From Arcobacter sp. (GTDB lineage Bacteria; Campylobacterota; Campylobacteria; Campylobacterales; Arcobacteraceae), in contig CBFIGT010000041.1 in assembly GCA_965662175.1 (NCBI GenBank), positions 1-17,621 of the forward strand: a stretch of DNA of 17,621 nucleotides, read 5' to 3'. This document shows, in pieces, positions 3,001-12,000 of the stretch; the first letter of the stretch is position 1, and every line of letters begins with the position of its first letter. The position numbers are program-made.

Positions 3001-6000
3001 TCATTTACAAACTCCAAAAACTCTCCATTTGATACCAAATATTTACTTGCACTAAAATCTTTTATATTAGCTTTGTGAAAAGAGAACTCATTATCCCAAC
3101 CATAATAAATAGGATTTTTAAAATCTTTTTCACAAATAACCTCTCCACCTTTTACAGTAATTAATTCATTTTTTGGATAGTTTTTACTACCTTCGTTATT
3201 GTATGGGAAAAGCTCAGTATTATTAAAGTGCTCAATATCTAACTCTCTTAATAAAACAGATGAAGTCTCAATATGGATATTTTCATGCTCAATTCCCATC
3301 ATAATTATCCACATAGGACTATCCCAATTTATAGGTAAAGTAAACTCAATAGAGTCAATCAACTCTAAAACTAATTTTTTAACTTCATCTCTATAAGCTT
3401 TAGTCTCTTCATAAGTTGGCCAAGAATAATGTTCACTATTTAAATCATCCCAACTCATTTCATCAACACCAATAGCAAAAATAGATTCAAAACTTTTATT
3501 TACTCTTTTATGTGTAATATTCGAAATATTAAGTTTATTCATAAAAAATGTAGCAGTATGACCATAATAAAAAATCAAAGGATGTCTTAGTTTATTTGGT
3601 TGTTCATAGAGTGATTTTTTATCTTTTAATAAATCAAAAAGTTTTTCATCTAATTCATAAGTTCTTAAAAAATAGTCTCGTATCTCTGCTCTTTTATCTT
3701 CGATAGTTCCGTCGTTTAAATTTATAGTTTGCCAATTATATTGCATATTTACCTCAAGTTTTTAATTCTTGTTATTTTATTTGTTTTTTTATCATCTTTG
3801 TATCTATTAAAAGTTAGTTTATATTTATATTAGTTTTTCTTTTGATAAAATAATTCCATCTGTATCTGCATAAATAATATTTCCCTCATGAAAATTAACT
3901 CCACAAAAAGATAAAGGAATTCCACTTTGTCCTTGTGTTACAGGTATATATTTTCTAGGACAAGTTCCCCTTGCAAATAGTGCAACAGGAATATCTTTTA
4001 TTTGAAAAGTATCTCTTATATATCCATTTACAATAATTCCCTCATAATTGTTTTTATGAGCAAACTTCATTAAGTTTTCGCCTACAACTGCGAAATACTC
4101 ATTTTCAACATCAACAATAACAACCTTACCTGTACCATCTTCATCTCTTAGAACTTTTATTAGTTCACTATTATTTCTATCAAGTTTAACTGTAACAACT
4201 GTTCCAGTAATCTTCTCTTTTCCACCATAATTTTTAAATTCATCATCTAAAACATAAGTTTTATCTGGGTGTTGGTCACAAATATCTGCTGTAAAAAAAT
4301 CCATTAAGTCTATCCTTTTGAAATAAATACCCTATTATTCCAAAAGATATTTAAACTTTATTTAAATAAAAAATATTTTCTTAATTAAAGAACTCTTTTA
4401 TGCTTGAACTTAACTCTTTAGTCTTTTCAAAAGGTACAAAATGTGAATTTGAGTTTAGCTCTTTAAAAGAAAAGTTTTTAGCTTTCTCTTTAAAATCATT
4501 CATCCACTTTGTACTTACAAGTCTATCTCCCTTTGAATATAAGAAAAATCCTTTTGTATTGTTTTTTATTAATTTATCTCCAAGCTCTATTCTAAGTAGT
4601 GTAATACCTAAATGGGTTTTAAAAGTTTCAAATCCAGCTTTTTTGTACATATCTTGTATTAAAGAAATCAACTCCTCGTTTTCATAGTTTTCTTCATCTA
4701 TTAATGTATGGATTTTTTTTCTACTAAGTTTTGTAAATCCAAAATCAACAGTTTGTTTTATAACTTGTTTTCTTTTTTCAATCTCATCTTCACTCATAGA
4801 AGCAGCGGTACAACCAACAGCCATAACTTTATTTATAAGTTCAGGATATTTAGAGCTTAAATACATAGCCACATAACCACCTAAAGAAAATCCTAAAAGA
4901 TTGATTTTTTCATCTTTTATACTATTTTTTAAAATATCAACAATCTCTTCAAAACTACTCTTTACAGGAATATCCATATGAATAAGTTCATACTCATTTC
5001 CTAAATTTTCTTTTAATTTATCCCATAATCTAATATCTGTCATAAAGCCTGGAAGTGCGTATATTTTTTTTACCATATTTAACCTAATCTTTTTTTACTA
5101 ATATTATATCTAATCTTAGTTTTACATACTTTTAGATATCCTTATGCCCTTTAAAAATGAACAAATAGGCAATTATATGAAAGTAGTAACAGGCGTTGTA
5201 GGAAATGACATACACGTTGTAGCAAATAGACTTATTGACCTCTCTTTACAAGCTAGAGGATTTGAAGTATTTAATTTAGGTGTTAATACTTATTTAGAAG
5301 AGTTCTTTGATGCTGTAGTTGAAACAAATGCTGATGTACTTTTGATTTCATCATTAAATGGTGAAGCTGAGGGTTGGTGTAGAGAAGTTAAAATCTTAAA
5401 ATCAAAATATAAAAATTTAGATAATGTAGTATTTATGATTGGTGGTAACTTAGTAGTAGGAACAGGTGACGCTTCAACTATTGTACCTAGATTTAAAAAT
5501 TATGGTTTTGATTTAGTATTCCATCAAGTTGATTTAAATACAGGACTTGATGCATTAGAAAAATATTTAAAAGAGAGAGAATAATGAGTTTACTACAAGA
5601 AGAGAGAGAAATAATCTTAAGTAACGAATATGTAGAGCATTTTGATTTTGCAGAAGTTGAAGAGTTTGTAAAAAATGCTTCAAAAGACCTTTTTATCTCT
5701 TATAATTTTAGAACAAAAAATAAAATGTTAGTTCAACCACGTGGTGGTTTTCCAACATATAATAAAATGTTTGCACTTTATGAGTTTTTTAATGATGCTG
5801 ATGTTGATGTTTTACCTTGTACTATTGATTCAAATACAAGATTAAATGATTATGCAACTGCTAAAAAAATGCTAAGATTAAGTGAAGAGAGTGAAGTTGA
5901 TATGTTAAATGGTTATCCATTGGTTAATCATGGATATAGAACATCAAGAAAAATGATGACACATTTTAATAAACCAATCTCTTTAAGACATGGAACTCCT

Positions 6001-9000: not shown

Positions 9001-12000
9001 CAGGTGGAAATGTAACTCCTAAAATGTTAAGTGATATTCAAGATAAATTTCATAATGCAAAATTCTTCTCAATGCATGGATTAACAGAAGCATTTAGATC
9101 AACTTACTTAGACCCAAGCCAAATAAACATAAGACCTAACTCTATAGGTAAAGCTATTCCTGATGTTGAATTATATGTTATTAATAGTGAGGGAAAAGAG
9201 TGTGCGCCAAGAGAGATTGGTGAATTAATTCACAGAGGTGGATATATTTACAAAGGTTTCTGGAATGCGCCACTTGAAACAAATGAGAGATTTAAATCAA
9301 TTGAAATTTTAAAAGATGTAATAAACCTAGAGGGACAATTAAGAGATGAAGTTGTTGTAAAAACAGGTGATTATGTTTATAAAGATGAAGAGGGATATTT
9401 TTATTTTGTATCACGTCATGATGATATGATTAAAACAAGAGGATTTAGAGTTAGTCCTTTTGAAATAGAATCAGTTGTATTTAATAATATTCCACAAATA
9501 GAACAGTGCGCTGTATTTTCAATAGATAATCAAGATATTGAAGAGGAGATTGTATTAGTTTATAGTGCTAGAAGTGAAATGAGTTCTAAAGAGATTACTT
9601 TTGAGTTAAAAAAACATTTAGCTTCTTATATGATACCATCTAAGATTATTTATAAAAAATCACTTCCTTTAATTCCAAGTGATAAAAATATTGTAAACAA
9701 AGAGGAGTTAAAAAAGGAGTTTAAATAAACTCCTTTTTTTCTATATACTAAGGAAGTATTTTTTTTCTATATACAAAATATATAAATAATAAAAATACTG
9801 AACTAAAAAAACCTATTGTTAAAAATGAGTCTGTTGGAATAGTTGCAATATAAAATAAGATTTCATTTTGCTCATTTCCCCTTGAACTAATCATAGCATC
9901 TGAAGTGTAAGCTCGGCTATATTGATTTAAACTTATTACTAAATTTATAATTGCAAAAAAACCTATAGCTGTAAGTAAAATATCTGTATAAAAATTATTT
10001 TTAGAGGAAATTTTATTGTAAATACTATTTATATTCTCTTTTACCATATCAATCAACTGCTCTGTATTTGCTAATATATCTTTAAATCTCCATTTATTTA
10101 ATATATTATTAAATACAATAAAATCATTATGGTTTAGATGTTTTAAAGTACTATAATACTCAACAAGATGAATATTTGTAGTACTAGATATATTTTCAAA
10201 ATGTTTCATAGTATCAATAACAGCAGCTTTTTTTAATAAATTTTTTAGACAAAACTTTTTGCTCTCTTTCTTTTGAGATTGATTAATAATTATTCTTAAG
10301 TTATAACGAATAACATCAACAACTGCATAATAATACTGAGCTAAAAACATCATATACCATAGCTTGTCTATATTTTGCACTTTTTCTCTAAATGCATATC
10401 TAATCCAATCCAAAGAGTAAGCACTTTCATCATTTTTTATTTCAATAATTTTATCTTTTGAAACTGCATTATTTAACCAATTATCCAATACATTACTCTT
10501 TTTAGAATCCCCTTTCTCAAAAACCAAAGCACTTGATAACCACATAACTTTTAAGTCAATATCTTCTTTATTATAATCAATAAAATCCAAATAAGAGTTT
10601 TTCTCTTGAATGATATTATTTTCATCTATTTTCTCAATTTTATTTAAAAAAGTAGTTATTTTATCTTTTGAACTATTTAATACTTTATTGACTATTTTTT
10701 TAGCTACTGCTTCACAAGAGTTAGTAAACTCAAGATTATCTTCACTTGAAATATCTTTTAAGTTTAATTTCATATCAACAATACCAATAGTATTATCAAA
10801 AAATTGTAATTCAAATGATTCTACAGAATCTATAAATTTATCTATTAAATCTTTTTGTTTACCATTATAGTTTTTAATTATATTATTGGCAATTTTAGTG
10901 AAAAAAATACCAAAAACTCTTTTTTCATTTTTCTCTAAAGAGTCATATGAACTATCATTATAAAGATTAATATTCTTCTCTAATTGACAAAACTCTAAAC
11001 ACTCAAAATCCTCATATAAACTTGAATTCTTTTTAACATCTTTCCAAAAATTAAAAAAACTACCTGATTTGAAAACAGACTCACTATTATCTAAACTAAA
11101 ATGCACTCTAACAGGTGCAACTGCATATAATTTCATCTTTTACCTAGTCAATTTGAATATACATATTTTCTATATATAAAATTTTACCTTTTAAAGGACC
11201 ATTAATAATTCTTACCTTGGTTTTTTTCAACATCTCATCATAAAATTTGATAATTCCAGGTTTTTTAAAATATTCACTCCACTCTAAAACAATAGCTTTA
11301 GTGCCTGTTGGTAACATATATTTTTCTTGAGAATTCAAGGTTTCAGAAGCAACAACAATTGGAAAAGAAGAGTTACTAACTAAGCGTACATAATCAGAAA
11401 TAGTAGGATTTAATAATTCTTGGTTTTTAAATAGTATCTCATCATATTTTCCTGACTTTTTTAAAGAGTCCAAGGCATTATTGAACTTTTCCATAAAAAC
11501 TCTATTTTTAGAATTAACACTTGAGATTAAATGTAAAGTATCTAAGCTAATAAACTCTTTATCTTTTATATACTCAATATTTGTATAAAAATCATTAAAA
11601 TATTTTTTTATAATTGTTATACCAACTAATTTATTAGATGGCAATAAATCAATTTCTCCTCGATTTAAGGAATTAAATGCCCTAAGCTCATTATTAAAAA
11701 ATATCTTATTTTTAAACTTATTAACATCTATATTTTTATATGCATAACCATTTATTAAACCAATTTTAGAGTTATATAAGGAATTTTTATTATAATTATT
11801 AACATTATAAAATAGTACATTTTCAGTTTCTAATAAACTTTTAGAATAATTCATCTCTTTTTCTCTTTCTAAAGTTTTAAAATAAGGAAAAGTAGCATCA
11901 TATTTTTCTTCTTTGGTATATAAATAACCATTTTCAAAAGAGTTTAATTCTAAACTATAATTAATCTTTAACTCTTCCATAATAGCATCAATAATCTCTG

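What a model noticed while it worked through the whole genome (the two positions that open the first line are those of the whole stretch)
3825..9728. Orphan glutamate mutase operon with stand-alone amino-acid adenylating enzyme
An operon glmS-glmE-mutL followed by a stand-alone NRPS-type adenylating enzyme (g01293-g01296), with a divergent RraA-like gene, sits in a genome (and a bacterial family) that has no methylaspartate ammonia-lyase. I read it as a pathway that makes (2S,3S)-3-methylaspartate from glutamate and activates it by adenylation for an anabolic use (transfer to a carrier, CoA or an envelope or metabolite acceptor) rather than for glutamate fermentation or the methylaspartate cycle. 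New would be a B12-dependent, highly conserved 3-methylaspartate-consuming pathway of unknown product shared by free-living Campylobacterota.
Evidence so far: GlmE g01294 aligns to C. cochlearium glutamate mutase E chain (6h9e_B/1cb7_B, E 3.5e-81, call 54) and keeps the residues aligned with R66, R100, R149, E171, Y181 of that chain (substrate-binding set, recalled from the literature). g01296 (521 aa) best PDB matches are NRPS A domains (LgrA 1.7e-56, TycA 4e-42; 3wvn, recalled as VinN, 4.7e-32) ahead of acyl-CoA ligases; it has A3 (SGTPKG), A4-like FNLDYG, A5 GLTE, A7 KTGD and A8 motifs and no fused carrier domain. Orthologues 79-91% identical in Arcobacter, Halarcobacter, Sulfurimonas, all named only 'AMP-binding protein'. 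neighbours.tsv: Met_asp_mut_E within 2 genes of AMP-binding in 209 Campylobacterales genomes (275 bear Met_asp_mut_E), MutL [...]
(Added by a program. Inside this text positions count along the whole contig: contig position 1 is position 1 of the stretch shown here. "Call 12" and the like, gene names such as g00115 and contig names such as C1 are that model's own, and its searches are not shown. The text may have been shortened before it was handed on; [...] marks where a part breaks off. The agent that wrote the report below was given it as the finding of a first reader that could run no searches.)

Follow-up and report, generated by a model that had tools for sequence, protein, structure and literature searches.

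The report
B12 glutamate shortcut with disarmed ligase
These genes most likely form an undescribed, dedicated vitamin-B12 route that turns glutamate into 2-oxobutyrate, the starting block for isoleucine, and they always travel with an amino-acid-activating enzyme that seems to have lost its activating chemistry and taken on a new, unknown job.

Summary
The operon is real: glmS-glmE-glmL plus an ANL-fold 'AMP-binding' gene, and no methylaspartate ammonia-lyase (0 of 78 genomes over cut-off). The scan found this module four times before on other DNA and read the fourth gene as an active ligase; I disagree. It keeps a VinN-type (methyl)aspartate pocket in 100 of 100 orthologues, but its P-loop has Ser→Phe (99/100) and the adenylation lysine is kept in only 53/100, against 39/39 in its sister clade, which still has a carrier protein and decarboxylase inside exopolysaccharide loci. 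The RraA-like gene is a true member (59/62 mutase genomes, 9/239 others; catalytic Arg-Asp invariant), and marine gammaproteobacterial copies add their own extra AspC-type aminotransferase. Best reading (0.55): glutamate → 3-methylaspartate → 3-methyloxaloacetate → 2-oxobutyrate → isoleucine, a genetically dedicated form of a route known only as promiscuous chemistry in E. coli, beside IlvA (62/62). The ligase-fold protein occurs in exactly the same 62 of 301 genomes and probably serves the mutase without adenylating. Separately, 45 of 50 tested carriers lack any known cobalamin adenosyltransferase. No activity is shown.

The parts
3825..4304 (-). RraA-like / HMG-aldolase-fold protein (159 aa); proposed 3-methyloxaloacetate decarboxylase; core member of the module
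   Evidence: PF03737, PRK09372 over cut-off; D7, D10, E/D76, R97, D98 invariant in 100 orthologues; in 59/62 mutase genomes vs 9/239 others; in 78/108 window-type loci, 0/52 sister-clade loci
4381..5076 (-). alpha/beta-hydrolase; lineage-specific passenger between rraA and glmS, not part of the module
   Evidence: Abhydrolase_1; present in 4 of 41 loci, all the window's genus
5077..5176 (.). short intergenic region with a conserved -10-like box upstream of glmS; in most relatives rraA and glmS share a back-to-back promoter region; no riboswitch or shared operator found
   Evidence: by eye in 96 upstream regions; no FNR/CRP-type palindrome; 0 Rfam hits in 7 sources; promoter scan no better than shuffles
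5177..5584 (+). glmS, B12-binding subunit of glutamate mutase (DxH motif NDIHVVA)
   Evidence: PRK02261 166 bits vs cut-off 110; alignment A4
5584..6951 (+). glmE, catalytic subunit of glutamate mutase
   Evidence: PDB 6h9e_B E 3.5e-81; R53, R86, R135, H136, E157, Y163, Y167, F202, H277, M280, K312, E316 invariant in 58; 69-95% identity across 61 other genomes
6961..8151 (+). glmL/mutL, ASKHA-type reactivating factor (both DxG phosphate motifs kept)
   Evidence: PF13941, NF040745; conservation string; function from family knowledge
8163..9728 (+). ANL-fold protein descended from a VinN/TIGR03098-type carrier-protein ligase; amino-acid pocket and thioester-conformation residues intact, adenylation motifs decayed (probable pseudo-ligase)
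   Evidence: AF2 model pLDDT 87.6; same 62/301 genomes as GlmE
8646..8678 (+). degenerate P-loop YSFGISGTPKG (residues 162-172; F164 in 99/100 vs Ser in 39/39 sister-clade and 7/7 TIGR03098 proteins)
9690..9692 (+). codon 510, the A10 catalytic-lysine position, here Ile (Lys 53, Gln 16, Arg 9, Glu 7, Val 4, Ile 2 of 100)

Best explanation
A constitutive, B12-dependent shortcut to 2-oxobutyrate for isoleucine synthesis. GlmS/GlmE (kept active by GlmL) isomerise L-glutamate to (2S,3S)-3-methylaspartate [enzyme identity shown by sequence]; an aspartate aminotransferase (a dedicated extra AspC copy in many gammaproteobacterial carriers, presumably the housekeeping enzyme in Campylobacterales) gives 3-methyloxaloacetate and regenerates glutamate [inferred]; the RraA-like metal enzyme decarboxylates it to 2-oxobutyrate [inferred from fold, motif and linkage]; IlvB/C/D/E make isoleucine [IlvC shown present]. 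Net 2-oxoglutarate → 2-oxobutyrate + CO2 with no ATP or NADPH, running beside threonine deaminase much as MetH runs beside MetE. The module arose from a carrier-protein cassette (ACP, ligase, mutase, PLP decarboxylase, acyltransferase) that lost carrier, decarboxylase and transferase and gained rraA; its ligase was kept but lost adenylation and now acts as a methylaspartate/AMP-binding helper or regulator of the mutase step [loss of motifs shown; role inferred].
For: RraA co-occurrence 59/62 vs 9/239 and 78/108 vs 0/52 loci; Arg-Asp and acidic ligand invariant, the residues E. coli RraA lacks, in a family with oxaloacetate decarboxylase activity (PMC5065237). AspC-type gene beside rraA in 19 loci, an extra copy in 13 of 14 genomes, one clade 15/15 with Ala/Pro for Val at a lid position in 15/15 vs 1/17. 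IlvC in 75/76 carriers, PrpB in 31/76, putative mesaconyl-CoA hydratase in 16/62, MAL 0/78. Methylaspartate rescues a 2-oxobutyrate auxotroph of E. coli (10.1101/2025.08.26.672309). ANL: P-loop Phe 99/100, A10 Lys 53/100, pocket and thiolation residues 100/100; roles of these lysines from PMC11253843 and PMC12186527. Proteins annotated as S, E, AMP-binding and RraA are found at similar levels on fumarate, nitrate and PCE in Sulfurospirillum multivorans (PMC4585668 supplements).
Against: IlvA is present in all 62 carriers, so the route is redundant and no complementarity supports it. No aminotransferase is linked in Campylobacterales or in Granulosicoccus/betaproteobacterial carriers. 3-methyloxaloacetate decarboxylates spontaneously, so a decarboxylase is not strictly needed. 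The pathway as drawn has no chemical step for the ANL protein, yet it is the most strictly co-inherited gene (62/62). 53/100 orthologues keep the A10 lysine and 36 more have a lysine nearby, as the window's protein does (K508). No link to ilv genes, no isoleucine-responsive leader. 45/50 carriers lack a known adenosyltransferase, so how the mutase gets its coenzyme is unexplained.
Confidence: 0.55

Rival explanations
1. One reading: the ANL protein is an active ligase with unusual motifs that adenylates 3-methylaspartate and hands it to CoA, a trans-encoded carrier or a small-molecule acceptor for an unknown anabolic product.
For: VinN-type pocket D208/Y209/S280/M304/R312 invariant; A5, A7, A8 invariant; P-loop Lys/Arg 95/100; descent from carrier ligases; strict co-inheritance with the mutase.
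Against: P-loop Ser→Phe 99/100, A10 Lys replaced by Gln, Glu, Val, Ile etc. in 47/100, 11/100 with no lysine in the loop; no ACP, decarboxylase or transferase homologue in window-type loci; the genome's second ACP sits in an unrelated cluster; does not explain rraA or the extra AspC.
Confidence: 0.15
2. The RraA-fold enzyme uses the enolate from 3-methyloxaloacetate (or 2-oxobutyrate) in an aldol condensation with another keto acid or aldehyde, giving an unknown specialised or cofactor-like metabolite (logic recalled from nikkomycin NikU/V-NikT-NikA).
For: Family are class II aldolases; redundancy with IlvA would be explained; extreme conservation.
Against: No further conserved tailoring, export or acceptor gene in 41 + 37 loci examined.
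Confidence: 0.1
3. Catabolic use: glutamate/2-oxoglutarate is drained via 2-oxobutyrate to propionyl-CoA and the methylcitrate cycle or propionate.
For: Same first three steps; PrpB in 12/12 carriers of the window's family and 13/16 of family f23.
Against: PrpB missing in 45/76 carriers, including all of five families; steady expression on all substrates tested.
Confidence: 0.1
4. The ANL protein, locked in its second conformation, is a new catalyst on 3-methylaspartate (non-homologous ammonia-lyase to mesaconate, or C3 epimerase feeding the transaminase).
For: Second-conformation residues K424, R429, E309 invariant; model fits thiolation-state structures best (TM 0.82-0.87 vs about 0.70); MAL absent.
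Against: Putative mesaconyl-CoA hydratase in only 16/62 carriers and in 9 non-carriers; no precedent known to me; linked AspC points to transamination.
Confidence: 0.07

Closest known systems
Glutamate mutase (methylaspartate) route to 2-oxobutyrate/isoleucine in E. coli W and Crookes (Abramsky 1962, Phillips 1972, as cited in PMC7476758 and 10.1101/2025.08.26.672309)
   Same: Proposed chemistry: glutamate → methylaspartate → methyloxaloacetate → 2-oxobutyrate.
   Different: There it is a side-flow of the fermentative mutase with promiscuous AspC and spontaneous decarboxylation; here a conserved MAL-less gene module with its own decarboxylase candidate, often its own AspC copy, and an ANL-fold partner.
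Fermentative glutamate mutase / mesaconate pathway (Clostridium GlmS-GlmL-GlmE-Mal) and methylaspartate cycle
   Same: S, E, L subunits with active-site residues kept.
   Different: Order S-E-L, about 37% identity to those enzymes, no ammonia-lyase (0/78), no obligate mesaconate genes (16/62).
Vicenistatin starter unit (VinH/I mutase, VinN ligase, VinL carrier, VinO PLP decarboxylase; gene roles partly recalled)
   Same: Mutase plus ANL protein with the D230/F231/S299/R331-type pocket; the sister clade found here has the full ACP-ligase-mutase-decarboxylase set.
   Different: Window-type module has no carrier, decarboxylase or PKS; ligase motifs decayed; rraA and aspC instead.
TIGR03098/TIGR03099 exosortase-A-associated ligase/decarboxylase pair
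   Same: Best-scoring family for the ANL protein; sister-clade cassettes sit next to true TIGR03098/03099 genes in EPS loci.
   Different: 434 bits vs cut-off 592; separate long-stemmed clade; no TIGR03099 over cut-off in the genome; no EPS context.
HMG/CHA aldolase - RraA family
   Same: Fold, Arg-Asp pair and upstream acidic ligand.
   Different: No aromatic-degradation context; tied to a B12 mutase; substrate proposed to be 3-methyloxaloacetate.

Membership tests
AdoCbl-dependent glutamate mutase | B12-binding S subunit with DxH motif | tested here: met
   PRK02261 over cut-off; D and H in at least 90% of 58
AdoCbl-dependent glutamate mutase | E subunit with arginine claw, Glu171, Tyr177/181, Lys326, Glu330 equivalents | tested here: met
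   Alignment to 6h9e_B, invariant in 58; TIGR01503 379 bits, just under cut-off 390; residue roles recalled
AdoCbl-dependent glutamate mutase | Catalyses Glu ⇌ threo-3-methylaspartate | not testable with these tools
   needs assay
Mesaconate fermentation / methylaspartate cycle | Methylaspartate ammonia-lyase | tested here: not met
   PF07476 0 hits in own genome; TIGR01502 over cut-off in 0/78, best 33 bits vs 286 (no control genome passed that cut-off either)
Mesaconate fermentation / methylaspartate cycle | Mesaconate/mesaconyl-CoA enzymes co-inherited | tested here: not met
   C50 hydratase-like gene in 16/62 carriers and 9/239 non-carriers (one protein query)
VinN-type beta-amino-acid carrier ligase | Pocket D230, bulky 231, S299, R331 | tested here: met
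   D208, Y209, S280, R312 in 100/100
VinN-type beta-amino-acid carrier ligase | Canonical P-loop and invariant A10 lysine for adenylation | tested here: not met
   F164 99/100; Lys510 53/100, Ile in the window
VinN-type beta-amino-acid carrier ligase | Cognate carrier protein and downstream PLP decarboxylase/transferase | tested here: not met
   No blastp hit to sister-clade ACP, decarboxylase, GNAT or AAC(3)-like proteins in any window-type locus; present in 30, 28, 27 of 44 sister loci
TIGR03098 ligase | Score over 592 bits, TIGR03099 partner, exosortase/EPS context | tested here: not met
   434 bits
HMG aldolase / RraA-type beta-keto-acid decarboxylase | Catalytic Arg-Asp with upstream acidic metal ligand | tested here: met
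   E/D76, R97, D98 in 100/100; importance of Arg-123/Asp-124 from PMC5065237; motif spacing recalled from Mazurkewich 2014
HMG aldolase / RraA-type beta-keto-acid decarboxylase | Measured aldolase or decarboxylase activity | not testable with these tools
   needs assay
Cobalamin adenosyltransferases (CobA, PduO, EutT) | PF02572 or PF01923 domain in a module gene | tested here: not met
   No module protein hits these families; genome has none. Whether the ANL protein works like one is open

The most novel reading that the evidence does not exclude
The disarmed ligase is a new kind of B12-enzyme accessory: an ANL fold that has swapped ATP-dependent acid activation for supplying or renewing adenosylcobalamin (an adenosine site plus an amino-acid pocket, a new invariant Phe and loss of the catalytic Lys would also suit SAM, a near-isostere of beta-aspartyl-AMP), filling the slot PduO/EutT fill beside the reactivases in pdu/eut operons and explaining why 45 of 50 Campylobacterales carriers have no known adenosyltransferase; it would serve the first dedicated B12 isoleucine route. 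Against: all 14 non-Campylobacterales carriers and one family (5/5) have CobA yet keep the gene, and three MAGs without the gene show no replacement.
Probability: 0.1. Interest if true: 0.95.

Novelty: new variant of a known kind. Interest (0 to 1): 0.74.

Why it matters
It would give the 60-year-old 'glutamate mutase pathway' to isoleucine its own genes and a wide natural range (vent, sediment and coastal Campylobacterales, marine Gammaproteobacteria), add a B12-dependent anabolic sink to cobalamin ecology, assign a real substrate to an RraA-family protein, and offer an ATP/NADPH-free 2-oxobutyrate route for engineering. The strictly retained pseudo-ligase is a rare case of an adenylating fold repurposed, and the adenosyltransferase gap is directly testable. 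The sister cassette suggests B12-derived 3-aminoisobutyryl decoration of exopolysaccharides.

Tried and rejected
Complex prediction GlmE + ANL: no verdict (score 0.01); not used as evidence. Replacement of IlvA by the module: rejected, IlvA in 62/62. Obligate link to the C50 mesaconyl-CoA cluster: rejected. TIGR03099 decarboxylase in trans: none over cut-off. Displacement test for the adenosyltransferase idea in three MAGs lacking the ANL gene: no CobA/PduO there either, uninformative as completeness is unknown. Riboswitch/operator: none. ESM Atlas returned only 'AMP-binding' clusters. Plasmid search found only distant mutases under 60% identity. The citramalate-synthase search in the genome gave no hit over cut-off. 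The careful ANL tree did not finish; the quick tree is reported. Papers PMC2667541, PMC8163811, PMC6299022 gave nothing relevant. The primary VinN paper was not available.

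
Full report
OBSERVATION. The four genes are as described: glmS (conserved start 5177), glmE 5584-6951, glmL 6961-8151 and a 521-aa AMP-binding gene 8163-9728, with an RraA-like gene at 3825-4304 on the other strand. An alpha/beta-hydrolase lies between rraA and glmS here but in only 4 of 41 loci. GlmE aligns to C. cochlearium GlmE at E 3.5e-81; counting along that alignment, R53/R86/R135/E157/Y167 match R66/R100/R149/E171/Y181 and are invariant in 58 orthologues (the residues' roles are recalled). No methylaspartate ammonia-lyase was found in the genome (94% complete) or over cut-off in 78 carrier genomes (five weak hits of at most 33 bits; no control genome passed this cut-off either). 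The NRPS label is overstated: the LgrA value sums two domains, the best family is TIGR03098 (434 bits, cut-off 592; NRPS model 210), and Foldseek on the model (pLDDT 87.6) mixes CoA ligases and A domains.

DISTRIBUTION. In an even sample of 301 genomes of the order, GlmE occurs in 62 (69-95% identity) and the ANL gene in exactly the same 62, also where it lies on another contig. RraA-like genes occur in 59 of these 62 and 9 of the other 239. Kin are not independent, so no test is given. A scan of GTDB and metagenome contigs with a sister-clade alignment (best 80 of 589 and 80 of 576 matches kept) showed two clades. Clade I, the window's type (rraA < glmS glmE glmL ANL), is also in Colwellia, Paraglaciecola, Reinekea, Granulosicoccus, Halioglobus, Oceanospirillaceae and Rhodoferax at 80-87% GlmE identity; in the quick ANL tree (35 of 100 clade I, 22 of 39 clade II, 7 TIGR03098-type rows; midpoint root) these copies nest among Arcobacteraceae, clade I is one group (SH-aLRT 100) on a long stem and joins clade II. 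Clade II (40-50% identity; Beta/Gamma/Alphaproteobacteria, Acidobacteria, Actinomycetota) reads GNAT-like > ACP > ligase > glmS > glmE > glmL > PLP decarboxylase, often inside exosortase-type exopolysaccharide loci (ACP 30, decarboxylase 28, GNAT-like 27 of 44 loci).

THE LIGASE HAS LOST ITS ADENYLATION MOTIFS. The pocket segment aligns with VinN; D230, F231, S299 and R331, named as the beta-amino-acid determinants in PMC11253843 (passages), map to D208, Y209, S280 and R312, all 100/100. The second-half residues named there (A8 Lys, A5-A8 salt bridge) map to K424, E309, R429, also 100/100. In contrast the P-loop is YSSGSTGxPKG or YTSGSTGxPKG in 39/39 clade II and 7/7 TIGR03098 proteins but has Phe for Ser in 99/100 clade I proteins and a variable next position; the A10 lysine (invariant and catalytic per PMC12186527, passages) is Lys in 39/39 and 7/7 but only 53/100 in clade I (Gln 16, Arg 9, Glu 7, Val 4, Ile 2), Ile in the window, and 11/100 have no lysine in the loop. 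Eight of the 28 columns fixed in clade II but changed in clade I fall in these two motifs. Against over-reading: 36/100, the window included, have a lysine one to seven residues earlier. New clade-specific invariant patches (N4/R7, S136-K142, E477-E481) suggest a new binding surface (inference). The gene was not found in three MAGs of unknown completeness with a dispersed module (3 of 5 picked for that reason).

THE LIKELY PATH. The RraA-like protein keeps E/D76, R97 and D98 in 100/100, where E. coli RraA has Arg-Gln; the family decarboxylates oxaloacetate through the same enolate as its aldol reaction (PMC5065237, passages). In non-Campylobacterales carriers an AspC/TyrB-family gene faces rraA (16 of 37 loci clustered; 19 loci by BLAST; family). 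It is an extra copy in 13 of 14 genomes, 72-87% identical across distant families, one clade of 15, with Ala/Pro where 16 of 17 other copies have Val in the GxGxY lid (a role in making room for a beta-methyl is my inference). It is absent from 7 of 7 Campylobacterales and from Granulosicoccus and betaproteobacterial carriers tested. Mutase + aspartate aminotransferase + beta-keto-acid decarboxylase spell glutamate → 3-methylaspartate → 3-methyloxaloacetate → 2-oxobutyrate. This is the 'glutamate mutase pathway' listed among nine 2-oxobutyrate routes (PMC7476758, one passage); methylaspartate rescues an E. coli auxotroph, presumably via AspC and spontaneous decarboxylation (10.1101/2025.08.26.672309, passages; its yield table is an image I could not see). 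For the sink, IlvC is in 75 of 76 carriers, PrpB in 31 of 76 and the C50 hydratase-like gene in 16 of 62 (that cluster is described for A. butzleri in PMC2147049, passages). IlvA is in all 62, so the route is parallel, not a replacement; this is the main weakness. Upstream regions show no riboswitch or shared operator. In the S. multivorans proteome (PMC4585668, section 7 and supplement rows) SMUL_1978 'AMP-binding protein' is seen in all 12 fractions, the E chain in all six soluble fractions at similar levels, S, the putative L and RraA in several, while corrinoid synthesis proteins rise only on PCE; I match these to the module by annotation and gene order, not by sequence.

AN UNEXPLAINED GAP. 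The genome has neither PF01923 (PduO/EutT) nor PF02572 (CobA/BtuR). Of 50 of the 62 Campylobacterales carriers tested, 0 have the first and 5 (one family) the second; all 14 other clade I genomes and all 16 clade II genomes have at least one. An adenosylcobalamin enzyme with a reactivase but no adenosyltransferase needs a source of coenzyme: uptake of intact coenzyme, an unrecognised enzyme elsewhere, or the repurposed ANL protein (about 0.1).

NOVELTY. Searches for glutamate mutase with Arcobacter, methylaspartate mutase with Sulfurospirillum (26) and glutamate mutase with Epsilonproteobacteria (97, two general surveys) found no description; nor did (open-licence PMC and bioRxiv only; bioRxiv supplements closed). 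The scan itself noted the module in four other genomes, each read as mutase plus active ligase of unknown product; no note held my pathway or pseudo-ligase terms. All enzyme steps have known relatives, so I file it as a new variant of a known kind: a dedicated gene set for a route known only as promiscuous chemistry, with a strictly retained, apparently disarmed ligase. Shown: anatomy, co-inheritance, motif decay, missing partners. Inferred: every activity beyond the family level, the isoleucine sink and the ANL role.

Noticed in passing
L081-L092, L096, L163-L184 (e.g. L090:7992-12688 and flanks): Sister cassette GNAT-like, ACP, intact ligase, glmS/E/L, PLP decarboxylase inside exosortase-type exopolysaccharide loci, often beside a true TIGR03098/03099 pair; would make a 3-aminoisobutyryl (or methylaspartyl) unit for surface-polymer decoration. 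Worth its own study.
   Followed up: partly
L111, L185, L190, L199, L200: Variant of the sister cassette with an AAC(3)-family acyltransferase, hydrolase and methyltransferase, three of them near NeuB/PseI-type sugar synthases: possible acylation of nonulosonic-acid glycans.
   Followed up: no
L094, L095, L097, L132, L189: Actinomycete variant: mutase with radical SAM enzyme, ATP-grasp ligases, FemAB/GNAT-like protein, MFS exporter and luciferase-like monooxygenase; looks like an unassigned small-molecule cluster.
   Followed up: no
G000 and 44 other Campylobacterales genomes: No CobA, PduO or EutT adenosyltransferase despite an adenosylcobalamin enzyme.
   Followed up: partly
window 1644-3746 (-): Ovothiol synthase OvoA (both TIGR04344 and TIGR04345 over cut-off), next to rraA in 8 of 41 loci, all of the window's family.
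   Followed up: no
window 9748-11136 (-): 462-aa ORF with a hydrophobic C-terminus and no Pfam or NCBIfam hit, convergent with the operon and not seen in the other 40 loci.
   Followed up: no
window 13727-14887 (+): TsoY-family protein (NF047644 over cut-off), read through without TGA.
   Followed up: no
L004 (G000:C21): Second acyl carrier protein between a MaoC-like gene, an SDR and an FkbH-like protein (labels recalled from sequence); unrelated to the mutase operon.
   Followed up: partly
L135, L152, L154, L231: Sub-lineage in which the module is dispersed; the ANL gene was not found in three of these MAGs.
   Followed up: partly
L085, L125: Module or sister cassette in MAGs labelled Gracilibacteria and Cryomorphaceae; may be binning errors.
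   Followed up: no
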